This document shows positions 1 to 52,142 of a stretch of DNA of 64,000 bases, piece after piece. Positions within the stretch are counted from its first letter, which is position 1; every line of letters begins with the position of its first letter. The DNA lies in NCBI RefSeq assembly GCF_024502345.1, contig NZ_JALDNN010000001.1; one strand, written 5' to 3'. The position numbers and the translations under genes are program-made. This DNA comes from Escherichia coli (GTDB lineage: Bacteria; Pseudomonadota; Gammaproteobacteria; Enterobacterales; Enterobacteriaceae). The notes under the pieces are model-generated. The model ran no database searches, was not told where the DNA came from, and saw nothing but the letters and a program-made list of their open reading frames with translations.

Positions 1-279
1 ACCCGTTTCAGCATCGTCCATAGCTCGTCGAGCAAGAAAATGGATAAGTCGATCCCATTTCTCAGCATTCGCGACTGAGCCTGTCCATTCAACTAGTTGA
101 GGAGAATAATCTCCTATTTGTGTAATATTTCTGAACTTTTTTTCCATATCAGCGGACATGTGTTCCCCTTTTTTCCACTTGCTAATTTGTGTTGAGGAAA
201 CACCTAAGTGGCTTGCTAAATCTTTTTGAGTGCATTTCAGAGTATGTAATGCGAGGCGTACAAAATATTCACCATTCAT
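1..279 (-). CDS. XRE-family helix-turn-helix transcriptional regulator, N-terminal 93 codons only (gene runs off window start)
   Basis: Minus-strand ATG at 279 with AAGGAA Shine-Dalgarno upstream; frame open to position 1; N-terminus MNGEYFVRLALHTLKCTQKDLASHLGVSSTQISKWKKGE has an XRE-type HTH signature. Absent from ORF track because truncated. Confidence 0.6.
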   Translation of the reverse strand, partial: MNGEYFVRLALHTLKCTQKDLASHLGVSSTQISKWKKGEHMSADMEKKFRNITQIGDYSPQLVEWTGSVANAEKWDRLIHFLARRAMDDAETG

Positions 280-420
280 CGGTCATTCCTTTTACTGAGC
301 ATAAAAACATAAAGTAAAAATAGAATGCGCTGAAATTTACTTTATTTCATTTAACTTTTACTTTAATTCCGAATTCGGACATGGTGGCCCCTAAACGCAG
401 TCACATTCTCTTAGCCGTAA

Positions 421-447
421 AAAAAGGCCGCATTTGCGGCCTTTAGC
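421..447 (-). terminator. argG rho-independent terminator (GC hairpin ggccgcaaatgcggcc followed by T-run on minus strand)
   Basis: Inverted repeat GGCCGCAAATGCGGCC flanked by A/T runs immediately downstream of argG stop. Confidence 0.6.
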
Positions 448-462
448 ACGAAAGCTATGATA

Positions 463-1821
<1,359 letters not shown>

Positions 1822-2230: not shown

Positions 2231-2353
2231 CTTTCCCTTAGAGTCCTTTTTCAAATATACTGTGAAGACTTCGGCCTTCGTAGTGGGATTTGAAAAAATC
2301 CTTCTGGAAAGTGCTCCAGACCGCAGTTGCGGTTATAGGGTTCAGTTATATAA

Positions 2354-2377
2354 AGCCCCGATTTATCGGGGTTTTTT
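2354..2377 (+). terminator. rho-independent terminator/attenuator between metY and rimP
   Basis: Hairpin agccccgatttatcggggc followed by TTTTTT. Confidence 0.6.
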
Positions 2378-2436
2378 GTTATCTGACTACAGAATAACTG
2401 GGCTTTAGGCCCTTTTTTTATGTCTTGGGGGTGGGC

Positions 2437-33415: not shown

Positions 33416-34171
33416 TTAGGTATTAATTAAACAAATAAAGTTACTGTGCAGCCATAAAAACGAAGCCGGGATAGCGGTGGAGACTTTAGCCGTGAGAAAA
33501 CGTTCTGTCGCATCCTGCTTTCCTTCGCCAGTCACCAATAACAAAACCTCGCGGGCATTGAGAATATCCTTCAGGCCTAAGGTGATCCCACGAGTCACGG
33601 GGCGACCCGTGGTTTTTAACATCTCATGTTGCTGTGTTCTGGCATCAAGTTGACTGATATGGCAGGCCGGTTGTAGGCTTTCTCCCGGTTCGTTCAGCCC
33701 AAGATGACCGTTTTTCCCCAACCCGAGAACGCATAAATCCAGACCGCCTTTGCGCGCAATCAGGTTCGTTACCCGTTCGCACTCTGTCTCATTTATCTCT
33801 TCGGAGCGAAAGCTGATGAGCTGGTCTTCACGCAGCCCCAGCGGCTGCACGATATGCTGTTGTAGGAAAGTTTCGCAGGTGCCAGGCATCGTTAATGGCA
33901 GATCCACCCATTCGTCGAGCTTCACGAAGGTGAGCTGGCTGATATCAACCTGCTGCTGGTGGATTTTTTCTACCAGATAATGATACGTCAGTAATGGCGT
34001 GGCTCCGGTCGCCAGGCAAATCACGGCATCCGGTTTGCTACGGATCACAGCCAATAAATATTCGCTGGCTCGTTCACTTAACGCCGTATAGTTTTCAACT
34101 TGCTGAAGGGTTTGCACAGGATGAAATTCCTTAAGTAAAGAGGCACCGCCAGAAGCAGTGCCTCGTTCCAT
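33416..34171 (-). CDS. agaI: galactosamine-6-phosphate deaminase/isomerase-like protein
   Basis: 251-aa NagB-family ORF; position at end of aga cluster. Confidence 0.85.
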   Translation of the reverse strand: MERGTASGGASLLKEFHPVQTLQQVENYTALSERASEYLLAVIRSKPDAVICLATGATPLLTYHYLVEKIHQQQVDISQLTFVKLDEWVDLPLTMPGTCETFLQQHIVQPLGLREDQLISFRSEEINETECERVTNLIARKGGLDLCVLGLGKNGHLGLNEPGESLQPACHISQLDARTQQHEMLKTTGRPVTRGITLGLKDILNAREVLLLVTGEGKQDATERFLTAKVSTAIPASFLWLHSNFICLINT

Positions 34172-34963
34172 TTACAAAATGCCGAATGCGGAACAAACAA
34201 TAGAGAGCACAAAAGTCACGCCGATTAACAGCACCGGATGCGCTTTTTTCACCCGCAGGAAGTAATACATCAGCATGGTGTAGGCCATCGGTAAAATGTT
34301 CGGGAAGACTTTATCGAAGAAATCCTGTTGCAGCGCGACGCTGTGGGTACTGTCGATGGCAAACGATGTCACCACGTTAATATGCACATACGAAGCGATC
34401 AGCCCGCCGATTACCGTGATCCCGAGGATGGTTGCCGAGCGAGCAATCATCTGCGAGTTCTCTCGCACTTTATCGATCGCCTTCACGCCGACTGAATAAC
34501 CGACGTGGGTCCAGCCGACGCGCAGGAAAAAGATAAGCAGGTAAACGGCGAAAAATAGAATCGGCCCCAGCAGGTTTCCCTGGCTGGCAAATGATGAGCA
34601 AATTCCCGCCATAATCGGCAACAAAGTAAACCAGAAAATCGCATCGCCAATCCCGGCGATTGGGCCAAACAGTGCCACTTTGAGGCCTTTAATGGTGTCG
34701 CGGTTTTCTCCTTTTTCTTCCATCGAAATTAATAACCCCATCAGGAATCCGACCAGATTCGGGTGGGTATTAATAAATTCGAGGTTATCTTTCATCGCCG
34801 CGCTTAAGCCCGGTTTGTCGTCCTTATAAATCTTTTTCAGGATCGGCAACATCGCCCAGGTAAAACCGCCCGCCTGCATCCTTTCGTAGTTAAAGCTCGC
34901 TTGCAGCAGCGACGAACGAAAGCCCAGACGGGTGATATCTTTTTTACTGATTTCAGATCCCAT
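34172..34963 (-). CDS. agaD: PTS galactosamine-specific EIID component
   Basis: ORF trimmed to MGSEISKKDITRLG (263 aa); mannose-family IID. Confidence 0.85.
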   Translation of the reverse strand: MGSEISKKDITRLGFRSSLLQASFNYERMQAGGFTWAMLPILKKIYKDDKPGLSAAMKDNLEFINTHPNLVGFLMGLLISMEEKGENRDTIKGLKVALFGPIAGIGDAIFWFTLLPIMAGICSSFASQGNLLGPILFFAVYLLIFFLRVGWTHVGYSVGVKAIDKVRENSQMIARSATILGITVIGGLIASYVHINVVTSFAIDSTHSVALQQDFFDKVFPNILPMAYTMLMYYFLRVKKAHPVLLIGVTFVLSIVCSAFGIL

Positions 34964-35756
34964 TGCTGTAGTCCTCTTCTTCATTTTTACTGGCAACGGG
35001 CTGCGGTTGCGCTTGCTGCCGGGATTTCGCATTGAAAAACTCATACACCGCAAAGCCTGCGCCCAGTACGGCAACCGGCAACAGGTTGCTGACCTGGATG
35101 TAGCAAACAAACAGGAAACCGGCGATCAGGTAAGGGATATATTGCGCTTTGAACATTACGCGCAGCAGCAAGCCAAAACCAACGGCAGGCAGAATACCGC
35201 CAGCCACTTCAAAGCCGTGGGTCAACCAGGCGGGCATCGCTTTCACCAGCGCCTGCATCGCCCCTTGTGCCAGGTAAGTACAGAGGAAAGCAATCACCGC
35301 ATACGCTGAAGCGACGATGAGCATCGTTGTCCAGTTAAGCCGGGAAAACGCTGCCGTATCCGCCTCTTTCGCGCATTTATCGGCTTTGGTCATAAATAAT
35401 GAGAAAGCGGAATAGAAGAACAGAATGACGTACTGCATTAACAAACTAAACGGCAGGCCAAGACCAATTGCTGTTTTGGCATCAACGCCCGTAGACCATG
35501 CAATGACGGTGGTCATCAGACCCGCCATAATCGGGTTGGGCGGCTGAACACCACCTGCAGGGGTTAATCCGGCGAAAGCCAACTCTGTCAGACCACCGGT
35601 AATTAAGCCAGTCTGAATATCACCGAGAATAGCGCCAGTTAGGGTACAAACGATTATCGGGCGGAATAAAAATAAGGCTTCCAGCCAAAAATCAATCCCC
35701 AGAACGAAAACTAACGCCGCCAGGGATAATCCCTGAAGTAGGGTTATTTCATGCAT
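34953..35756 (-). CDS. agaC: PTS galactosamine-specific EIIC component
   Basis: 267-aa membrane ORF recognised as AgaC. Confidence 0.85.
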   Translation of the reverse strand: MHEITLLQGLSLAALVFVLGIDFWLEALFLFRPIIVCTLTGAILGDIQTGLITGGLTELAFAGLTPAGGVQPPNPIMAGLMTTVIAWSTGVDAKTAIGLGLPFSLLMQYVILFFYSAFSLFMTKADKCAKEADTAAFSRLNWTTMLIVASAYAVIAFLCTYLAQGAMQALVKAMPAWLTHGFEVAGGILPAVGFGLLLRVMFKAQYIPYLIAGFLFVCYIQVSNLLPVAVLGAGFAVYEFFNAKSRQQAQPQPVASKNEEEDYSNGI

Positions 35757-35794
35757 TTTTATTACCTCAAACCAATATTAAGGCGATTTTAGAT

Positions 35795-36271
35795 TTAGTC
35801 AGGGATTTGTTCTTTTTGATCGCCAGGGACGTCCTGAATGAAAACATTCACGCCACGTTGTTTAATAAAACGTAAGTCCGCGAGATCCTGGTCATCGACA
35901 TAAACTTTACTGCTGATTTGCTTTTTCCCTTCCGAGAAATGCATATTGCCGACGTTGATATCTTTCAGGTCAATGCCACCTTCTACCAATTTACGTACCG
36001 TTTGTGGCGTACGGCAAATAAGGAAGATCTTCTGATGCGGTGCAGCTTTGCCGATGACGTTAATGGTTTTTTCGATAGTAAAGAAACGAATGCCAAAGCC
36101 GTAGGTTTCTGCGGTAATACCCATTAATTTCTGTTGAATATCATCGTTAGCGACAACATCATCCACGACTACCAGCAGATTCGCACCGATGGTGGATGTC
36201 CAGGTCACGCCAACCTGACCGTGAACCAGACGGTTATCAATACGGGTTAAGAGAATATTTGGACTGCTCAT
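35795..36271 (-). CDS. agaB: PTS galactosamine-specific EIIB component
   Basis: 158-aa ORF recognised as AgaB. Confidence 0.85.
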   Translation of the reverse strand: MSSPNILLTRIDNRLVHGQVGVTWTSTIGANLLVVVDDVVANDDIQQKLMGITAETYGFGIRFFTIEKTINVIGKAAPHQKIFLICRTPQTVRKLVEGGIDLKDINVGNMHFSEGKKQISSKVYVDDQDLADLRFIKQRGVNVFIQDVPGDQKEQIPD

Positions 36272-36437
36272 TGTGTAATCCTCACCATAAAGTTGAATAA
36301 TATAATTTTTTTTAATATATTATTGTTGCGATATTGTACTGATGTATTTATTAAGGTTTAGTCATCTCCTTTTCCATTAAGGCACTCCCCGATATTAATC
36401 GGGAAGTACATTGGGATAAATCATAAAAAACTAATGA

Positions 36438-37310
<873 letters not shown>

Positions 37311-38465
37311 TTATGCCTGCCACGGATGAATGATTACGCCTTGCACCACGCGGTTAACGGTGCCGCTGGCTGATGGGGTATCCGGCGTATTGCCCATGTG
37401 CAGCGACTGCATCAGTGCAAACGTCTGGGCGTACATCAGGAAGCAAAATGCCTGCTCAACGTCGATAAAGTGACGTGACGGCGGCAGGATAATATGTGGA
37501 CCGGCAGCGACGATGTCGGTGCTTTCCGCGGCGATGGCGATTACGCGCATTGCCTGGTTGTCACGGCGGAGTTCAGCCAGCAGATCAAGATCATACTGAC
37601 GGGTGTAAGGGTGGCTGGAGACAAATACCACCACCAGTGTTTCGTTATCGACCAGCGATTTTGGTCCATGACGGAATCCGGTTGGAGAATCATAAAAGGC
37701 CGCCAGTTTACCCGCCGTCAGTTCCAGCACTTTCAGCGCCGACTCGCGTGCTGCGCCCTGTAAGCCACCGCTGCCGAGATAAACGATCCGTTTCCACGGT
37801 GCGTAACCAAACACACCTTCGCTGAAATCGCCCAGTGAGGTCAGGATCGCCTGGCAACGATCCGCCACGTCGCGGAAGGTTTGGCTGTTGATCGTCTCAG
37901 GTGCGAAAACCGCGAGGCAGCTGGCCATCATGGTGGTAATGCTGCTGGTCATCGCAAAGCCGCGATCGTGCGTTTCTGCGGGCATCAGCAGGGCAAACGC
38001 GTTATCGCTGTTGATCGCGTTTTGGTAAAGAGCGCCCGCTTCGTTGCAGGTGATCGGCAGGTGATAGCATTCTGGTACAAATTGATTTGCCAGTTCCACG
38101 GCAGCGACGCTTTCCGGGCTGTTGCCGGATCGACCGAAGGAGATCAACAGCAGCGGATGGGCTGGGTTCAGGTAGTCCATCGGATTGGTGACCAGATCGG
38201 TGGTCGGTACGGCGCTGAAGTTTTTACCGGTATGGCTGGCGAGCCACGGCGCGATGATGTCACCGATAAATGCCGACGTTCCGGCTCCGGTCAGGATGAT
38301 CCGCAGATTCTCTTTGCGCAGTAACGGTTCAAGGAAGTTATTGAGCGCGGAACGTAGCGCGTCGATGTTGGTGAGTGAACGGATCCATGCGCGAGGCTGA
38401 TGGCGGATCTCTTCTTCAGTCCATGTACCGGTTGCGGCGGCAGCAGGGGTGTAATTTTCTGGCAT
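37311..38465 (-). CDS. agaS: SIS-domain galactosamine-6-phosphate deaminase/isomerase
   Basis: 384-aa ORF recognised as AgaS. Confidence 0.9.
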   Translation of the reverse strand: MPENYTPAAAATGTWTEEEIRHQPRAWIRSLTNIDALRSALNNFLEPLLRKENLRIILTGAGTSAFIGDIIAPWLASHTGKNFSAVPTTDLVTNPMDYLNPAHPLLLISFGRSGNSPESVAAVELANQFVPECYHLPITCNEAGALYQNAINSDNAFALLMPAETHDRGFAMTSSITTMMASCLAVFAPETINSQTFRDVADRCQAILTSLGDFSEGVFGYAPWKRIVYLGSGGLQGAARESALKVLELTAGKLAAFYDSPTGFRHGPKSLVDNETLVVVFVSSHPYTRQYDLDLLAELRRDNQAMRVIAIAAESTDIVAAGPHIILPPSRHFIDVEQAFCFLMYAQTFALMQSLHMGNTPDTPSASGTVNRVVQGVIIHPWQA

Positions 38466-38620
38466 AACTCAATCCTTAGTCTGATGAACTTGACGTCGGG
38501 CGTTGTCGCTTTCACTTGCCTTTCGTTTCATTTCACTTGGTGATGTCTTTCGTTGATTAAAATCTATATAAAAGAAACTGAAAGTTCAATGGAGAAAAAG
38601 GAAATAAAACGAAATCTGTG
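38466..38620. promoter_or_regulatory. agaS promoter region with repeated CTTTCGTTT-type AgaR operator half-sites
   Basis: cctttcgtttcatttcac, tctttcgttg, aaaacgaaatc motifs upstream of agaS start. Confidence 0.5.
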
Positions 38621-38649
38621 ATCGTTGAAAGAAAAGACAAGGGAAGATT

Positions 38650-38760
38650 AAGAATTGCGTAATGACGTCGCTATGTTCACCGATTGCCGGATGCGGCGTA
38701 CCGTAGGTCGCATAAGACGCGTTAGCGTCGCATCCGACACCGCTGCACAGATCAAAAAGA
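38650..38760. repeat. REP element cluster between agaA and agaS
   Basis: GCCGGATGCGGCGTACCGTAGGTCGCATAAGACGCGTTAGCGTCGCATCCGAC palindromic units. Confidence 0.7.
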
Positions 38761-38804
38761 AAGGCCTTACGGGGGAAGTGAAGGCCCAATAATGGAGCAA
38801 ACCA

Positions 38805-39938
38805 TCAAAACGAAGCTAATTGACCCTGAATCCAGATTTGTTGCACATGTAGCCCGCTATCCAGCGCAACGACGCTGGCGCGTTTGCCCGGTTTAAGCGA
38901 TCCCAGAACACCATCAACACCCAGCATTCGCGCCGGATGCAGCGACGCCATATGGATGGCTTCCGCAGGCGTTACGCCCGTCAACTCGACCATATTGCGC
39001 ACTGCCGCATCAACAGACAGCGTACTGCCCGCCAGCCCACCAGACGCGGTACGGACAACGCCACCGTGCATCTGCACTTCTTCACCACATAACGTATAGC
39101 GACCATCCGGCATCCCAGCTGCCTGCATCGCGTCGGTGATCAGTACGATTCTCTCTTTCGCACAGCAACAACACAGCGACATTGCCGCCGGATGCACATG
39201 ATGACCATCGGCTATCAGTTCCAGCCAGGCGCGCTTGTCCGTTAATCCCGCGCCAACCATTCCCGGTTCGCGGTGATGTAAACCTGTCATCCCGTTATAG
39301 CAATGCACCAGGCCGTCGGCACCAGCATCAAATGCGGCGCGGGTTTGTTGCCAGGTCGCCGCGCTATGCCCCAGCATCACCCTTACGTTTTGCTGTTTAA
39401 GATGGCGGATGGCCTGCAATGCCCCTTCTTTTTCCGGTGCCAGCGCTACCACGCGTAAGGTGTGCTGAGAAACGGCAATCAACTGATCCAGCTCGGCAAT
39501 TTCAAGCTCGCGAAACAACTGCGGCGGATGCGCGCCTTTATTCTGCGGCGTGAAGTACGGTCCTTCGAGATAACTCCCCAGCACTTGCGCACCAGGTCCG
39601 CCGCGTTGGCAACGTTGAGCAATACGTTTCAGCGCCGCATGAATGGTATTAAGCGGCGCGGTTACGGTGGTCGGTAACCAACTGCCGACACCTTCGCGTG
39701 CCTTGTGCATTGCCAGCTTGTCGAGTACATCCGGCGCGTCATCCATTACATCAACGCCCGCACCACCGTGTACATGGGTGTCGATGTAAGCAGGGCAGAG
39801 CAGTTCCGCATCGCGTTCAGTCACGCCCGCTGGAATCGGTTCGATTGCTGCGATGACACCGTCAGCAATACGCAACTGATGGTCATCGAGCCATCCCTCT
39901 TCAGTCAGCAGCCTTCTGGCGCGCAGAACGTGTGTCAT
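38805..39938 (-). CDS. agaA: N-acetylgalactosamine-6-phosphate deacetylase, apparently full length
   Basis: 377-aa NagA-family ORF from ATG at 39938 (overlaps upstream TGA in ATGA) with N-terminal metal-binding HVHGG motif. Confidence 0.85.
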   Translation of the reverse strand: MTHVLRARRLLTEEGWLDDHQLRIADGVIAAIEPIPAGVTERDAELLCPAYIDTHVHGGAGVDVMDDAPDVLDKLAMHKAREGVGSWLPTTVTAPLNTIHAALKRIAQRCQRGGPGAQVLGSYLEGPYFTPQNKGAHPPQLFRELEIAELDQLIAVSQHTLRVVALAPEKEGALQAIRHLKQQNVRVMLGHSAATWQQTRAAFDAGADGLVHCYNGMTGLHHREPGMVGAGLTDKRAWLELIADGHHVHPAAMSLCCCCAKERIVLITDAMQAAGMPDGRYTLCGEEVQMHGGVVRTASGGLAGSTLSVDAAVRNMVELTGVTPAEAIHMASLHPARMLGVDGVLGSLKPGKRASVVALDSGLHVQQIWIQGQLASF

Positions 39939-40078
39939 ATCCCTTCCTCGACCGGACATTCTTCATGGCAGCGGTCTAACTCGTCCACCAGACTGGTCAG
40001 CCCACGATGTCCACACTCCAGCGCCTGTACTCGGAATTCTTCACCGCTTAACCCTTCGCGCTCCAGCACCATCTCCAG
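39935..40078 (-). pseudogene. agaF: 3' remnant (47 codons) of PTS EIIA gene agaF, lacking start
   Basis: In-frame peptide LEMVLEREGLSGEEFRVQALECGHRGLTSLVDELDRCHEECPVEEGI ending in stop that overlaps agaA start; no upstream initiator. Confidence 0.5.
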
Positions 40079-40241
40079 TACCGCCGGTTAAAATACCGGT
40101 ATGCAGATCGCCAAGTACCAGCCCGACTAACGGGCCGAGGACCACCGGGCGGTGCATATGGGTTAAGCCGTTAAACATATCCAGGCCAGCGATAAAGGCG
40201 ATAATGCCCAACGCGAATGCCTGCAACAGACTGATTTCCAT
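40041..40241 (-). pseudogene. agaW: 5' fragment of PTS EIIC gene agaW (54 native codons then frameshifted tail)
   Basis: N-terminus MEISLLQAFALGIIAFIAGLD... parallels AgaC N-terminus, then runs out of frame into agaF remnant. Confidence 0.6.
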
Positions 40242-40251
40242 GATGAATCCC

Positions 40252-40725
40252 TCAAAGTAATTTAAAGAGGTCCACAGCAGGCTCTGTCGGGACGCCCTGA
40301 ACGAAGCATTCCACCCCAGCGGCTTTCAGGTCGTTAAATGCTGCGATATCGCCCGCATCCACAGAAACCGTTTTGGCGATTTGTTGCTTGCCATTGGCGT
40401 AGTGCATATTGCCAACGTTAATGCGATTCACCGGAACGCCACCTTTCACCAGCGTCAGGAAATCGGCGGGTGTTTTACAAACCAGCAGGATTTTCTGTCG
40501 ATCGGCGGCGCGATGAATGTTGTCGATAACTTTTTGCAGCGTCCAGAAACGTACGGCGATCCCTTCTGCCAGTACCATTTCCATCAGGTTTTGTTGTACC
40601 GGATCTTCGGCAACCTCATCGTTGGCTACCAGCACCAGATTTGCCCCCGCAAATCCGACCCACTGAACGCCGACCTGACCGTGAATCAAGCGTTCATCAA
40701 TCCGGCTTAAAACAATATTTGGCAT
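40252..40725 (-). CDS. agaV: PTS N-acetylgalactosamine-specific EIIB component
   Basis: ORF trimmed to MPNIVLSRIDERLIHGQ (157 aa); paralogue of AgaB. Confidence 0.85.
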   Translation of the reverse strand: MPNIVLSRIDERLIHGQVGVQWVGFAGANLVLVANDEVAEDPVQQNLMEMVLAEGIAVRFWTLQKVIDNIHRAADRQKILLVCKTPADFLTLVKGGVPVNRINVGNMHYANGKQQIAKTVSVDAGDIAAFNDLKAAGVECFVQGVPTEPAVDLFKLL

Positions 40726-40747
40726 AGCGTGTTCCTCTTTGTTTTGC

Positions 40748-42028
40748 TTATTGGCCTTCACAGGCTGTGTGGTACTGCGCCAGGATGTCCTGAATATGGT
40801 TGATAATGAGTTCCCGTGGCGTTGGCTGCAGCTCGCCGGAGCGAACTTTCACGTACTGCAGCGGCAGATACTGGCTGATCAGCGGCAGCGGAATTGGTGA
40901 ATCCGCCAGATTACGTACCAGATGAGCGAAAGCGTCATCAATCTGGCTGTCCGGCCAGTAATAGCGCACGCGATCCGAGTAGCTATAACCACGCGCCAGA
41001 CGACGCGCGTTGCCGTCACCGTGGTAGTGGCTTTGCCAGTATTCCGGGCGGTCGAGCATCACGTTTTCCAGCACCTGACGCAGACCAGAACAGGCTTTTG
41101 CTGGCACCAGTTCTTCTTCAATCGCTGCCAGAGAGAACAGAGCTTCACGCAGGGCGAAGGTCAGCGCCGGGCCAACTTTCAGAATGGCAAAGTGGTCAAT
41201 CACCAGCCGGCGCAGCGATTGCGGCGTTTGATAATCGGTAGAGTGCGCTTCGAAAATCAGCGTTTCGTAGCTTTCGACCATCTGGCTTAAGGCGGTCGCT
41301 TTGGCGGGCTGATAATCAATAACGTTGGTGTGATCGAATTCGACGCCGGGTTGAACCACCAGGGCAATGATGCGTGGCCAGATGGCATTCAAACCTTGCT
41401 TTTCAAAGGCGTGACGATGGGCTTCCAGCGTGGCGCGGGCGGCATCCGGCGTGGTGACCACCAGCTCGCTTAAGGTTTCATGCGCGCCGCCAGGTACCGG
41501 CACTTCGGTACCAATGACATACTCCAGATCGGCTTCGCCAAAGTGTTCAAGACAGGTTTCTTCCGCCACTTTCGCCAGACGGGCGGCGCGTTCAGCCACG
41601 ATGTCATCAGTTAAGGGAATCGGATCGTCCTGACAGGACATGCTGCAATCAAGGTGGATTTTTTTGAATCCTGCCGCAACGTAGCTTTTAATCAAATCAT
41701 CGGCATTGGCCATTGCCTGAGCGGCCGGCAGGTTTTGCCAGCGGTTTGGCCCCAGATGGTCACCACCCAGAATCAACGCATCCTGCGGGAAATTCAACGA
41801 GTCGGCGAGCTGACAAACAAAGCCGCGAAAATCGGCGGGCGTCATTCCGGTATAACCGCCGAACTGGTCTACCTGATTGGAGGTTGCTTCAATCAGTAAC
41901 GGCGTTTGGTTTGCACTGGCGTAGCGGATTGCAGCCTCCAGCACCAGCGGATGTGCGGAACAAACGGCATAAATTCCATTTGTTTTGCCCGCTTTGTGCT
42001 GTCTCACCATTTCTGTCAGATGTTTCAC
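40748..42028 (-). CDS. kbaZ: tagatose-bisphosphate aldolase non-catalytic subunit
   Basis: 426-aa ORF recognised as KbaZ/AgaZ. Confidence 0.9.
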
Positions 42029-42276
42029 TTTCCTCTCCAGTTCAGATTACTGCGATATTAATCTTTCGTTTTGTTTCAGTTGATACTGCGTCATGGTGAG
42101 ATAAAAATAAAACGAAAGATAATAGTTTTCTGATCTGATTCACAAAAGAAACATAATGAAAGTCACTGAAACGAGAGTAGCTTGCGTCAATGGGCAAGGT
42201 GGGCTTGCATTTGCTTAATAGAAAGGCGTTAATAGGCAAAACGAAATGAAACGAAAGTTTTACGAAAGGACTTACT
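42029..42276. promoter_or_regulatory. kbaZ/agaR divergent control region with repeated AgaR operator motifs
   Basis: At least five copies of CTTTCGTTT / AAACGAAAG (e.g. 42063-42072, 42108-42118, 42240-42270). Confidence 0.6.
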
Positions 42277-43086
42277 ATGAGTAATACCGACGCTTCAGGT
42301 GAGAAGCGAGTGACAGGCACCAGCGAGCGACGAGAACAGATCATTCAGCGTCTGCGACAGCAAGGGAGTGTGCAGGTTAACGATCTGTCGGCATTGTATG
42401 GCGTATCTACTGTGACGATCCGCAACGATCTGGCGTTTCTGGAAAAGCAGGGGATCGCTGTGCGTGCCTATGGTGGCGCGTTGATCTGCGATAGCACGAC
42501 GCCGTCAGTCGAGCCATCAGTGGAAGATAAAAGCGCACTGAACACCGCGATGAAACGCAGCGTTGCGAAAGCTGCCGTTGAGTTGATTCAGCCAGGTCAT
42601 CGGGTGATCCTCGATTCCGGGACCACCACTTTTGAGATTGCTCGTCTGATGCGCAAGCACACTGACGTAATTGCGATGACCAACGGTATGAACGTGGCTA
42701 ATGCGTTGCTGGAAGCGGAAGGCGTTGAGCTGCTGATGACCGGCGGGCATTTGCGCCGTCAGTCGCAATCTCTTTACGGCGATCAGGCTGAGCAATCGCT
42801 GCAAAATTACCACTTCGATATGCTGTTTCTTGGTGTAGATGCGATTGATCTGGAGCGCGGCGTCAGCACACATAATGAAGATGAAGCCCGTTTAAACCGC
42901 CGGATGTGCGAAGTTGCGGAACGGATCATCGTGGTCACCGATTCCAGTAAGTTCAATCGTTCCAGTTTACATAAGATCATTGATACTCAACGTATCGACA
43001 TGATCATTGTTGATGAAGGCATTCCTGCGGATAGTCTGGAAGGACTGCGAAAGGCTGGGGTTGAAGTGATTCTGGTCGGGGAGTGA
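42277..43086 (+). CDS. agaR: DeoR-family repressor of the aga regulon
   Basis: 269-aa ORF with N-terminal HTH and DeoR-type sugar-binding domain. Confidence 0.9.
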
Positions 43087-43141
43087 GAAAGGGTTGCCCG
43101 CTGGTCAACACGAATGCGTTCGGCGGGCATTGTGAACACCA

Positions 43142-43606
43142 TCAATGGTTTTCTTCTGTCTCTTGGGTGAGGCTTTCCCAGTCGGCAGGAGGATGTCCTC
43201 TTTTTAACATTTTACTGAATACGGTATAGGCATCTGTTTTTTTACCGTAGGTGCGCAGCGTGTTTTCATCGTTCATCCATCCCAGAATGATGACTTTCTC
43301 TTTTTCACTATAGCGAAAGAAGAGACGATAACGACCAGCATCAAATTTTACCCGTGACCAGTCTTTATTTTTCCCAGAGCCTAACGACTTGCCATGACGG
43401 AATGCCGGTGATGATGGATTGACCGTGATATGCTCCTCAATCACTTTATGGACTACCGCCAATAACTTTGTGGCGGCTTTTCTCTGATAATTTTCAGGAT
43501 CTTTTCCCTTTAATGTCTCGACTTCGGCAACTAAAGCGTCGTAGGTTTCCTGAAAACAGGGATGAGCATATAGCGCCCAACCATTAACCCTTTGTGGAAA
43601 ATCCAT
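43142..43606 (-). CDS. yhaV: type II toxin YhaV (ribosome-dependent mRNA interferase)
   Basis: 154-aa ORF recognised as YhaV; overlaps prlF stop. Confidence 0.9.
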   Translation of the reverse strand: MDFPQRVNGWALYAHPCFQETYDALVAEVETLKGKDPENYQRKAATKLLAVVHKVIEEHITVNPSSPAFRHGKSLGSGKNKDWSRVKFDAGRYRLFFRYSEKEKVIILGWMNDENTLRTYGKKTDAYTVFSKMLKRGHPPADWESLTQETEENH

Positions 43607-43941
43607 TATTCGTCGTCGCCAATCTCATCATCAATGTTGACGTCCATGCCAGCGACAAGTTTCTTTCCTTGTTGAATGTTGAATGGACGAGTTTTTTGCG
43701 GGTTGTTCTGGATATCTGCATCCAGAAAACGCAAAAATGCATTCATAGTATGATCCTCCTGTTCATTTCCCAGTCGGCACATAAATACTTGCCCACCAGG
43801 CAGAATTTCGTAATGAATGCTGTCCTGGCCTGGCTTCAGTTTTAAAGCCTCACGCACTGGCGCGGGGATAGTTGTTTGTCCGCGTATCGTGACCTTTGAT
43901 TCAGTGGTCAGTACAGCGTGAGAGCGAGCATTAGCGGGCAT
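43606..43941 (-). CDS. prlF: antitoxin PrlF/SohA (AbrB/SpoVT-type DNA-binding fold)
   Basis: 111-aa ORF with acidic C-terminal tail; upstream of yhaV. Confidence 0.9.
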   Translation of the reverse strand: MPANARSHAVLTTESKVTIRGQTTIPAPVREALKLKPGQDSIHYEILPGGQVFMCRLGNEQEDHTMNAFLRFLDADIQNNPQKTRPFNIQQGKKLVAGMDVNIDDEIGDDE

Positions 43942-44089
43942 GATTCACTGTCCTTTTACAGCCTGTTTTCTGCTCAAATTATAAGCTTGAAATAAGGTAA
44001 TGCAAATGCATTATTAATGGACGTGGGGGCTTTAAACAATAAAAACATGGCACTAAGGCCATGTTTTGCGAGGGACGTTCCAAAAGAAA

Positions 44090-50954: not shown

Positions 50955-52142
50955 CTATATTGCATTTAAAAGGTCGTAATCATACGTATAGTCCTCTCTG
51001 GTAAAATATTGCTTCTCTGAGTTATAAGCTTCATATGTGTTATATTTTACGACCTCAAAGCAATTGTCTGGAGAATTTTCGTCTTTCTCGATTGTATTAT
51101 CTGGAAGGAATTCCTCTGAGCTAGAGTCCTCTATGTTTAAATCTGTATTGTAATTAATTTTTGGAACGATTAGATAAGCATTTTCTTTGACGCTTTCATA
51201 ATCTTTAATGATTATATCGATGTAATAATCTATTTTTTCTAATGAGAATGCTTTCATCTCTGGTAATTTAATTCTGTTCAAGTAATTGTTAATTTTCGAT
51301 GAGCTTTTATATATTTCTTTTGTTAATTCATTTTCTAATTCATCTGTTAGAGTTGCTCTTGGTATAGATTCTATAATTGCAAGTCTCATAATTTTTAATT
51401 GTTCTTCGGTAATATCTCCAAGCGCATTTAAACAACTTTTGATAAGTTTAATTTTTTCTTCAGAATACATATCGTTAATGCTTGTTATAACAGGCGTTAT
51501 TTTTAGTAAATAATCCCATGAGATTGTGGCGTTTTGTTTTGAACTAACGAAATTTACCTGAAACATGTTGGCATTAGTAAAATCTGTGTCATCCAATTTA
51601 AAAGGATTTAAAATTGTATTGGCCATATGTTTATCTGTAAAATCATAAGGTTCTAAATCGACATTCCGTAAGTCCAGAGAGGATAGATCAACTATACCTC
51701 CAGTCCCACAACTAAAGATAACGTTCAACCTCCTGATTTCATTGTAAATGTCTTTCAATGGGCAATTAACATTAATATTGCCTGTGGATATTTCCTGGTT
51801 TTTTAACGGTTCATTAATTGTAAGTTCACAGGTATTGTCTGATCGTTGAATAATTCGGGCGTTATAACCAAAAAAATCCATACGAAGAGACAAATCATTA
51901 TAAAGAATTACATTTTGTAAGTACGCTAATTCTTTTTGAAAATCACCAGTGATAACACATTTCCCACCTGGTTGTAACGCGTTAAGTAAAGTGACCATTT
52001 CAATAGAGGTCTGTTTTAGTTTTTCTATGCCTGGTGCTAGTGCTTCGAGGTTATTTCCTATGGGGCTTTCAGGAAGGTCATTCATTTTTCGACGGGCTAA
52101 ATCACTACTAATATCATTACCAATTGATGAAACAGGTGACAT
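50955..52142 (-). CDS. yhaC: uncharacterized pentapeptide-repeat-containing protein
   Basis: 395-aa ORF, strongly AT-rich; internal run of 5-residue periodicity (SSLDL RNVDL EPYDF TDKHM ANTIL NPFKL DDTDF TNANM FQVNF). Confidence 0.8.
   Translation of the reverse strand: MSPVSSIGNDISSDLARRKMNDLPESPIGNNLEALAPGIEKLKQTSIEMVTLLNALQPGGKCVITGDFQKELAYLQNVILYNDLSLRMDFFGYNARIIQRSDNTCELTINEPLKNQEISTGNINVNCPLKDIYNEIRRLNVIFSCGTGGIVDLSSLDLRNVDLEPYDFTDKHMANTILNPFKLDDTDFTNANMFQVNFVSSKQNATISWDYLLKITPVITSINDMYSEEKIKLIKSCLNALGDITEEQLKIMRLAIIESIPRATLTDELENELTKEIYKSSSKINNYLNRIKLPEMKAFSLEKIDYYIDIIIKDYESVKENAYLIVPKINYNTDLNIEDSSSEEFLPDNTIEKDENSPDNCFEVVKYNTYEAYNSEKQYFTREDYTYDYDLLNAI

What the first reader, a model, noticed from the sequence alone, without database searches (positions are those of the whole stretch)
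1..462. XRE-family HTH regulator gene downstream of argG, with a thrice-repeated TAAAGTAAA motif in its promoter
On the minus strand an ORF starts at ATG 279 (AAGGAA ribosome-binding site upstream) and stays open to the window edge; its N-terminus has a textbook XRE helix-turn-helix. In K-12 as I recall it, this position holds the 3' end of yhbX on the other strand, and no plus-strand coding frame is open here, so this looks like strain-specific content, possibly the edge of an inserted island. The AT-rich 280-420 interval carries TAAAGTAAA three times (plus strand 310-318; minus strand 337-345 and 357-365, the latter two 20 bp apart), a layout expected for operators of an autoregulated HTH repressor. 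Only 93 codons are visible, so the rest of the locus cannot be judged.
Basis: partly seen in the sequence, partly recalled or inferred. Interest (0 to 1): 0.5.

Follow-up and report, generated by a model that had tools for sequence, protein, structure and literature searches.

The report
Solitary self-regulating HTH gene replacing yhbX
In about 4 % of E. coli strains the yhbX gene next to argG is replaced by one horizontally acquired gene for a DNA-binding protein that very probably switches itself off by binding four short repeated sites in its own promoter; the protein's large second domain resembles nothing known, so its wider role is open.

Summary
A minus-strand ORF starts at ATG 279 and runs off the window. 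In a 100 %-identical genome it is a 317-aa protein. TAAAGTAAA occurs three times in 64 kb, all in the 280-370 interval (expected 0.35). The middle copy is at 336-344, not 337-345, and a fourth site (291-299) was missed.

The operator idea is strongly supported by comparison. Across 55 non-redundant homologous loci from several phyla, the palindrome TTTASTAAA is about 100-fold enriched upstream of the gene. Sites come mostly in pairs 21 bp apart that overlap the -35/-10 or +1 region. There are 56 pairs upstream and none in 643 kb of flanks. The half-site variant also co-varies with a recognition-helix residue (p about 1e-6).

The gene is always solitary, and it is essentially absent from phage records and rare on plasmids. 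Its 260-aa all-helical C-terminal domain has no sequence or fold relative. My verdict is a negatively autoregulated regulator of an uncharacterised family, of moderate interest.

The parts
1..279 (-). The 5' part (codons 1-93) of a 317-codon gene for an HTH protein (RefSeq WP_001012978.1, 'helix-turn-helix domain-containing protein'). The remaining 224 codons and the stop lie beyond the left edge of the window (window -674 to 0).
   Evidence: Translation. The full gene was read from the 100 %-identical record NZ_CP104613.1. The start codon aligns with the N-termini of 43 homologues.
286..291 (-). Shine-Dalgarno sequence AAGGAA, 6 nt upstream of the ATG.
   Evidence: Read directly from the sequence. 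AAAGGA is conserved in the alignment of enterobacterial promoters.
291..299 (-). Site 4 (CTCAGTAAA), at -20 to -12 relative to the ATG and overlapping the ribosome-binding site.
   Evidence: It is a positionally conserved block (TTTACTAAAAGG in Citrobacter, Salmonella and Enterobacter).
310..318 (+). Site 3 (TAAAGTAAA on the plus strand, TTTACTTTA in the gene's sense), at -39 to -31. It covers the inferred transcription start.
   Evidence: Conserved block TTYACTTWA in five enterobacterial lineages.
322..327 (-). Inferred -10 hexamer CATTCT. It is weak (3 of 6 matches), but the key positions A2 and T6 are invariant in the alignment.
   Evidence: Alignment A3. The consensus promoter scan found nothing at its threshold, so this assignment is an inference.
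336..344 (-). Site 2 (TAAAGTAAA), at -65 to -57, inside the 17-nt spacer between the inferred -35 and -10.
345..350 (-). Inferred -35 hexamer ATGAAA, which aligns with TTGAAA or TTGCAA in Salmonella, Enterobacter and Citrobacter.
   Evidence: This is an inference.
357..365 (-). Site 1 (TAAAGTAAA), at -86 to -78, 21 bp upstream of site 2.
416..445 (-). Intrinsic terminator of argG (GGCCGCAAAUGCGGCC followed by U7). It belongs to the strain-specific segment.
   Evidence: Inverted repeat I3. RNA fold of -22.6 kcal/mol, z = -3.9. In K-12 the corresponding sequence lies inside the 3' end of yhbX.
463..470 (-). Right-hand breakpoint of the replacement, inside the last codons of argG. The protein ends ...NKVK here and ...NKGQ in K-12.

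Best explanation
This is a horizontally acquired, solitary gene for a transcription factor that represses its own promoter.

The N-terminal ~57 residues form an XRE-type helix-turn-helix that recognises a 9-11-bp site. The family consensus is a-TT(T/A)A-S-T(A/T)AA-t. The E. coli version is TAAAGTAAA, which keeps the AGTAAA core. Sites come in pairs 21 bp apart, that is two helical turns, on the same face of the DNA.

In E. coli four sites cover the promoter. Site 1 lies just upstream of the -35. Site 2 lies in the -35/-10 spacer. Site 3 lies over the transcription start. Site 4 lies over the ribosome-binding site. A bound protein should therefore exclude or trap RNA polymerase and hold its own level constant.

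The 260-residue all-helical C-terminal domain is found only fused to this HTH. It most probably makes the dimer or tetramer that bridges sites two turns apart. It also carries an invariant surface (E-T-G-Y, and H-P-D-I-Y-M-N-E-L-L-x-G-M-R-x-I-H-Q-V-L-P) that would receive a signal or a partner.

The 1.17-kb cassette (own terminator for argG, promoter/operators, gene) replaced the 2.05-kb yhbX segment. The likely route is homologous recombination through the argG and leuU flanks, from an enterobacterial lineage that carries the gene in the same slot.

Shown: the ORF, its distribution, the replacement boundaries, the HTH fold, the conserved paired sites and the covariation. Inferred: binding by this protein, the direction of regulation (repression), the promoter hexamers, and the role of the C-terminal domain. 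Any targets other than its own promoter are unknown.
For: Gene and allele:
- The full ORF is 317 aa.
- 236 of 5,426 genomes carry it and 5,179 carry yhbX.
- The breakpoints are at the leuU terminator and within argG codons 446-447.
- The cassette is 34-40 % GC against 50-57 % in the flanks.
- SNPs against K-12 cluster next to the junction.
- The same argG-leuU slot is occupied in Salmonella, Citrobacter, Enterobacter and an 89 %-identical variant.

HTH:

Operator:
- Exact TTTASTAAA occurs in 41 of 55 non-redundant upstream regions, at 1.27 per 160 nt against 0.011 in shuffles.
- At least two sites are present in 43 of 55 regions, and 39 of 57 spacings are 20-22 bp.
- There are 56 pairs in 9.4 kb of own-upstream DNA against 0 in 643 kb of flanks.
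- Sites bracket TTGACA-like -35 boxes or abut TATAAT.
- The inverted orientation is found in 22 of 44 pairs, p = 3e-4.
- Four site blocks are conserved while the spacers drift in five enterobacterial lineages.
- Residue 30 Thr goes with half-site TTTAS (26 of 27) and Ala with TTAAS (10 of 12), Fisher p = 1e-6.

Solitary gene:
- No neighbour is conserved within 4 kb on either side in 59 loci.

C-terminal domain:
- It is always fused to the HTH: 314 representatives of 1.84 billion proteins match, with the domain starting at residue ~58-66 in nearly all of those listed.
Against: - No experiment exists; binding and repression are inferred from sequence alone.
- The E. coli sites deviate from the family consensus at 2 of 9 positions, although the recognition helix is the Thr type.
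- The inferred E. coli promoter is poor (-35 4/6, -10 3/6) and was not found by the consensus scan. The E. coli copy could therefore be weakly expressed or regulated differently.
- The covariation test is not corrected for shared ancestry.
- A 9-bp palindrome is too short for a conventional XRE dimer, and 21-bp spacing is unusual, so the stoichiometry is unknown.
- The most conserved C-terminal segment is modelled with low confidence (pLDDT 53-67).
- Negative autoregulation alone does not say what the protein is for.
Confidence: 0.72

Rival explanations
1. It is a one-gene defence or abortive-infection (or otherwise toxic) module. The C-terminal domain would be an effector or a phage sensor, and the HTH would only keep expression low, as the regulators of BREX or CBASS systems do, but here fused into one polypeptide.
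For: The gene is solitary and patchily distributed (4 % of E. coli). It has low GC. It spreads across phyla at 50-57 % identity. It is inserted between unrelated core genes. Invariant polar residues (H275, D277, E282, R288, H291, K203, K233, E246) could form an active or ligand site. This reading is compatible with the autoregulation evidence.
Against: No PADLOC model matches beyond the HTH, either for the whole protein or for 33 C-terminal domains. There is no nuclease, protease, NTPase or other effector fold. The sampled neighbourhoods are not defence islands. No toxicity or phage data exist.
Confidence: 0.15
2. It is an orphan immunity repressor left behind by a prophage, ICE or other mobile element.
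For: XRE HTH repressors with multiple operators are typical of phages. The best structural matches include ImmR of ICEBs1 and P22 C2. PHROG 'transcriptional regulator' families match the HTH.
Against: There are no matches in 50,697 phage records. Only 4 weak or fragmentary matches turn up in 2.9 million IMG/VR contigs, and 5 in 72,556 plasmids. No integrase, att-like repeat or phage gene is nearby. There is no S24 peptidase or ImmA-type partner. The PHROG hits cover residues 7-62 only.
Confidence: 0.04
3. The repeats are not protein-binding sites but a by-product of an AT-rich promoter, or are bound by a host factor rather than by the encoded protein.
For: The interval is AT-rich. The E. coli sites differ from the family consensus. 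No binding data exist.
Against: Dinucleotide-preserving shuffles give 0.011 sites against 1.27 observed. Real flanking DNA has no pairs in 643 kb. The motif follows the gene into unrelated genomes and contexts. It changes together with the recognition helix.
Confidence: 0.04

Closest known systems
Cro/C1 (XRE) family autoregulators with a small HTH: 434/P22 repressors, ImmR of ICEBs1, anti-CRISPR-associated Aca proteins, DdrO
   Different: Those proteins use 14-20-bp operators with half-sites about 10 bp apart, and their C-terminal parts are known (S24 peptidase, short dimerisation helices, a partner protease). Here the sites are 9-11-bp palindromes paired at 21 bp. The 260-aa C-terminal domain has no relative, and there is no partner gene or mobile element.
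Controller (C) proteins of restriction-modification systems (C.AhdI, C.Esp1396I, C.BclI)
   Different: C proteins are about 80 aa, sit in an R-M operon, and both activate and repress. This protein is 317 aa and solitary, and its sites also cover the spacer, the +1 position and the RBS.
RNPP/Rgg-type regulators (PlcR, PrgX, Rgg2): XRE HTH plus a ~230-aa helical peptide-sensing domain
   Same: Same overall plan and size: an N-terminal XRE HTH followed by a large all-helical domain that dimerises and senses a signal.
yhbX (K-12 b3173, putative phosphoethanolamine transferase), the alternative occupant of the slot
   Same: It occupies the same argG-leuU interval. The two are effectively mutually exclusive alleles in E. 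coli (5,179 against 236 genomes).
   Different: It is an unrelated gene on the opposite strand, 541 aa, with a membrane enzyme fold. It shares no sequence with the HTH cassette.

Membership tests
XRE / Cro-C1-type HTH DNA-binding proteins | Five-helix HTH_3-like fold at the DNA-binding domain | tested here: met
XRE / Cro-C1-type HTH DNA-binding proteins | Match to Pfam HTH_3 (PF01381) or HTH_19 (PF12844) above the gathering score | tested here: not met
   For the E. coli protein, HTH_19 scores 25.1 bits against a cut-off of 30.2, and HTH_3 scores 19.2 against 23. Many homologues carry precomputed PF01381 or PF12844 hits, so the family as a whole is borderline by sequence and clear by fold.
XRE / Cro-C1-type HTH DNA-binding proteins | Sequence-specific binding to repeated operator sites | not testable with these tools
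   The evidence is comparative only: conserved paired sites and covariation between the recognition helix and the half-site.
RNPP / Rgg quorum-sensing regulators | C-terminal TPR-like repeat domain that binds a peptide | tested here: not met
Phage CI / LexA-type repressors | C-terminal S24 peptidase (self-cleavage) domain and residence in a prophage immunity region | tested here: not met
   No Peptidase_S24 hit. There are 0 phage records and 4 weak IMG/VR loci. No phage genes are adjacent.
Type II toxin-antitoxin antitoxins with XRE HTH (HigA, MqsA, HipB) | Adjacent, co-transcribed toxin gene | tested here: not met
   No gene cluster is shared among 59 loci within 4 kb on either side. In E. 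coli the neighbours are argG and tRNA-Leu. The NCBIfam HigA, MqsA and HipB hits score about 15-16 bits against cut-offs of 48-72, and cover the HTH only.
ImmR/ImmA or IrrE/DdrO pairs | Cognate COG2856 metalloprotease (HEXXH) encoded next to, or fused with, the HTH | tested here: not met
   No conserved neighbour. No peptidase family hit is found in the protein or in 33 C-terminal domains.
Known anti-phage defence systems (PADLOC-DB v2) | Significant match of the protein, outside the generic HTH, to a defence-system model | tested here: not met
   The full protein matches only over HTH residues 2-49, with E of 1.8e-4 or weaker. Of the 33 C-terminal domains, each of four models is matched by a single member, with E of 0.012 or weaker.

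The most novel reading that the evidence does not exclude
The family may be a self-contained one-gene module of a kind not yet described. In this reading, an autoregulated HTH is permanently fused to an orphan all-helical domain whose invariant polar cluster (ETGY; HPDIYMNELL-GMR-IHQ) acts as an effector or sensor. Examples would be a single-protein anti-phage or anti-plasmid system, or a regulator that docks onto a universally conserved host machine. That would explain why a lone gene spreads across phyla, stays more than 50 % identical, and regulates nothing nearby except itself. A second unusual possibility is a DNA-binding geometry with one HTH per 9-bp palindrome and partners held two helical turns apart.
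Probability: 0.2. Interest if true: 0.7.

Novelty: new variant of a known kind. Interest (0 to 1): 0.42.

Why it matters
This gives a clean, testable case. An uncharacterised but widespread regulator family (745 proteins found at E <= 0.001, in Alpha-, Beta- and Gammaproteobacteria, Desulfuromonadota, Acidobacteriota and others) now has four things defined:
- a predicted operator;
- a predicted specificity-determining residue (Thr/Ala at position 30 against T/A at site position 3);
- a defined promoter layout;
- a natural presence/absence polymorphism in E. coli (236 against 5,179 genomes at one locus) that could be used for isogenic comparisons.

The C-terminal domain has no sequence or structural relative, so solving it would add a fold and possibly a function. 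The finding also shows that the argG-leuU interval is a two-allele slot shared across Enterobacteriaceae, and that strains with this allele lack yhbX.

It is not a surprise in kind, because autoregulated XRE regulators are common.

Tried and rejected
1. Edge of a genomic island. Rejected: the cassette is 1.17 kb with one gene, and core genes resume immediately.
2. Conserved partner gene (toxin, protease or effector). Rejected: all-against-all clustering of ORFs within 4 kb on either side in 59 loci found nothing shared beyond close relatives. The 270-aa gene 18 bp downstream in one Acinetobacter is absent from other Acinetobacter loci.
3. A fixed cassette boundary suggested by a 183-nt upstream gap in several genera. 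Rejected as coincidence: the gaps range from -19 to 933 nt.
4. Phage or plasmid origin. Rejected: 0 phage records, 5 plasmids, 4 weak IMG/VR loci.
5. Identification of the C-terminal domain. The following found nothing significant or consistent:
- Pfam, NCBIfam, PHROGs and PADLOC on the protein;
- Pfam and PADLOC on 33 diverse domains;
- PDB by sequence and by profile;
6. Distant relatives with other architectures. A profile search of 1.84 billion representatives gave only 314 hits, essentially all with the same HTH-plus-domain layout.
7. A J-domain reading of the invariant HPD tripeptide. No DnaJ hit appears at E <= 1 in any of 33 members, so it was dropped.
8. An RNA element in the intergenic region. 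No Rfam match in 1-470.
9. A canonical sigma-70 promoter in E. coli. The consensus scan found none. The hexamers I give come only from alignment with other enterobacteria.
10. Other targets nearby. The only exact family-consensus site in the window (51,502) maps, by coordinates in the near-identical record NZ_CP104613.1, inside garK, and it is at the chance level.
11. Literature. No paper in the held library mentions the protein accession or the operator, and none of the six papers retrieved for the yhbX/argG/leuU locus was on this topic.

Full report
**1. What is in the sequence**

On the minus strand an ORF starts at ATG 279 and is open for 93 codons to the window edge. AAGGAA lies at 286-291, 6 nt upstream. 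No plus-strand ORF longer than 42 aa overlaps 1-462. argG occupies 463-1806 on the minus strand. A GC-rich hairpin followed by U7 at 416-445 is its terminator (-22.6 kcal/mol, z = -3.9).

TAAAGTAAA occurs three times in the 64-kb window, and all three are here:
- 310-318 on the plus strand;
- 357-365 on the minus strand.

The expected number is 0.35, and 0 of 100 shuffles reach three. The two minus-strand copies are 21 bp apart. No Rfam family matches the interval.

**2. The whole gene and the locus**

Window 1-470 is 100 % identical to E. coli AHM8C212RI. In that record the ORF is a 954-bp gene for a 317-aa 'helix-turn-helix domain-containing protein', lying between tRNA-Leu (leuU) and argG.

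Alignment of the two alleles places the left breakpoint directly after the leuU terminator (window -707|-706). The right breakpoint is inside the last codons of argG, at window 463-470, so the protein ends ...NKVK here and ...NKGQ in K-12. Thus about 1.17 kb replaces 2,049 bp. The new segment holds a new argG terminator, a promoter region and one gene.

Other features of the replacement:
- The segment is 34-40 % GC against 50-57 % in the flanks.
- SNPs against K-12 are concentrated next to the junction: 8 in window 468-580 and 23 across argG, against 7 in about 2 kb of the left flank. That pattern suggests import by homologous recombination through the flanks.
- Among 5,426 complete E. coli genomes, 236 carry this segment (always chromosomal, 228 of them at 99 % identity or more) and 5,179 carry the yhbX segment.
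- Core genes follow on both sides, so this is not the edge of an island.

In Salmonella (71 % protein identity), Citrobacter koseri (73 %), Enterobacter (68 %) and an 89 % variant, the homologue sits in the same argG-leuU/secG slot.

**3. The protein**

Only residues 6-42 match any family. They match generic HTH models below the Pfam cut-offs (HTH_19 25.1 against 30.2; HTH_3 19.2 against 23). NCBIfam, PHROGs and PADLOC likewise match only the HTH.

The family itself is real and tightly conserved:
- 745 proteins at E <= 0.001, 316-322 aa long, 52-58 % identical over their full length in Pseudomonas, Photorhabdus, Serratia, Acinetobacter, Massilia, Oryzomonas and others.
- 75 genomic loci in Alpha-, Beta- and Gammaproteobacteria, Desulfuromonadota, Acidobacteriota and Deferribacteres.
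- Invariant motifs that include ETGY and R-x-HPDIYMNELL-x-GMR-x-IHQVLP.

A profile of the C-terminal domain finds only 314 representatives among 1.84 billion proteins. Nearly all of those listed have the domain starting at residue ~58-66, so the domain is essentially always fused to this HTH.

**4. The gene is solitary**

Clustering of all ORFs within 4 kb on either side in 59 loci shows that nothing is shared between unrelated genomes except the gene itself. The contexts differ:
- between an MFS gene and pflA in Serratia;
- next to a Fic gene in Pseudomonas;
- beside a T6SS cluster in Acinetobacter;
- between argG and leuU in enterobacteria.

There are no matches in 50,697 phage records, 5 in 72,556 plasmids and 4 weak or fragmentary ones in 2.9 million viral contigs.

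**5. The repeats are a conserved operator**

The upstream regions of homologues in five genera cannot be aligned, yet all carry AGTAAA/TTTACT two to four times.

In 55 non-redundant upstream regions:
- The exact palindrome TTTASTAAA is present in 41, at a mean of 1.27 per 160 nt against 0.011 in dinucleotide shuffles.
- With one mismatch allowed, 51 have at least one site and 43 have at least two.
- The top de novo 8-mers are TTACTAAA and TTAGTAAA, each in 41 loci.
- 39 of 57 site-to-site spacings are 20-22 bp, and 28 of them are exactly 21.

Using real DNA as the control, there are 56 pairs in 9.4 kb of own-upstream sequence and none in 643 kb of flanks. Single sites occur at 15 per kb against 0.57 per kb.

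The extended consensus is a-TT(T/A)A-G-TAAA-t. Pairs prefer the inverted orientation, 22 of 44, p = 3e-4.

Two layouts recur:
- Site 1, then a TTGACA-like -35, then site 2 inside the spacer.
- TATAAT fused to site 1, so that the pair covers +1 to about +30.

Both layouts predict that a bound protein blocks RNA polymerase.

The half-site variant also tracks the first residue of the recognition helix. VSPTQISKW goes with TTTAS (26 of 27) and VSPAQISKW with TTAAS (10 of 12), Fisher p = 1e-6, not corrected for phylogeny. This links the motif to the encoded protein rather than to a host factor.

**6. The E. coli arrangement**

E. coli has four sites in two pairs. Sites 1 and 2 are 357-365 and 336-344, 21 bp apart. 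Sites 3 and 4 are 310-318 and 291-299, 22 bp apart. The fourth overlaps the Shine-Dalgarno. Each site keeps the AGTAAA core but deviates from the family consensus at two positions.

Alignment with four other enterobacterial promoters shows the four site blocks conserved while the intervening sequence drifts. A -35-like hexamer lies between sites 1 and 2 (ATGAAA at 345-350; TTGAAA or TTGCAA in the others). A -10-like hexamer follows 17 nt later (CATTCT at 322-327), with A2 and T6 invariant.

These hexamers are weak, and the consensus scan did not find them. They are an inference.

**7. Most likely mechanism**

The protein is a negatively autoregulated XRE-type transcription factor. Its HTH reads one 9-11-bp site each. 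The C-terminal domain would hold two (or four) HTHs so that sites two helical turns apart are bound together.

I put about 0.8 on 'binds its own promoter at these sites', about 0.65 on 'represses', and little on any specific role for the C-terminal domain.

The main rival is a one-gene defence or effector module with built-in autoregulation, at about 0.15. It is compatible with everything above, but no database or fold match supports it. The orphan phage-repressor and chance-motif readings are essentially excluded.

**8. Comparison and novelty**

It works like the small Cro/C1-type autoregulators and the R-M controller proteins, which have paired operators over their own promoter. It is built like RNPP/Rgg regulators, with an HTH plus a large helical domain. 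It fails the defining tests of each more specific family considered:
- the CI/LexA repressors (no S24 peptidase);
- the toxin-antitoxin and ImmR/ImmA pairs (no toxin or protease partner);
- the RNPP/Rgg regulators (no TPR-like domain);
- phage immunity repressors (no phage context).

The held literature has nothing on the protein or its operator. I rate it a new variant of a known kind: an ordinary mode of regulation attached to an unknown domain in an unusually self-contained, widely transferred gene. Interest is moderate.

Noticed in passing
window 463-470 (argG 3' end): The replacement changes the last two residues of argininosuccinate synthase (NKVK* here, NKGQ* in K-12, NKGK* in the Salmonella locus L015). 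It also gives argG a different terminator. In K-12 the argG stop is only 7 nt from the convergent yhbX stop.
   Followed up: partly
window 468-928 (argG): SNPs against K-12 are clustered: 8 in 468-580 and 8 in 841-928. The background is about 0.4-0.5 % further away. This looks like mosaic recombination tracts reaching into argG.
   Followed up: partly
L071-L074 and L086, upstream ~60 nt (Polynucleobacter): The most divergent clade (34 % identity, recognition helix VSKVQISKW) has a different inverted repeat, GTTACTTAAC-N15-TTAAGTAAC, in place of the TTTASTAAA pair. This would be a further step of operator/protein co-divergence.
   Followed up: partly
L011:8982-9794 (Acinetobacter ursingii): A 270-aa gene without any Pfam hit follows the homologue by 18 bp on the same strand. 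It is not found next to the homologue in other Acinetobacter loci (L046, L070).
   Followed up: partly
L017 (contig JAIJJM010000762.1, labelled MAG Collinsella sp.): A 1,485-bp contig in a Collinsella (Actinobacteria) metagenome bin encodes a protein 100 % identical to the E. coli one. It is most likely an E. coli contig mis-binned into that MAG.
   Followed up: no
window 2319-2400 and 2154-2230: The rimP leader (Rfam RF01770, 69 bits) and the initiator tRNA-Met metY lie upstream of rimP-nusA-infB, as expected for this region.
   Followed up: no
window ~33,500-44,000 (L096:20043-30459): This strain's near-identical genome has the complete aga/kba N-acetylgalactosamine cluster, including agaW, agaE, agaF and the deacetylase gene.
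   Followed up: no
window 51502-51510: This is the only exact family-consensus site (TTTAGTAAA) in the window. By coordinates in the near-identical record it falls inside garK. It is unpaired and at the chance level (33 of 100 shuffles have at least one).
   Followed up: yes
P0003 (292 aa), P0010 (228 aa), P0013 (182 aa): Some E. coli-type members are shorter than 317 aa. They may be truncated alleles or partial gene calls, which would suggest occasional decay of the gene in E. coli.
   Followed up: no
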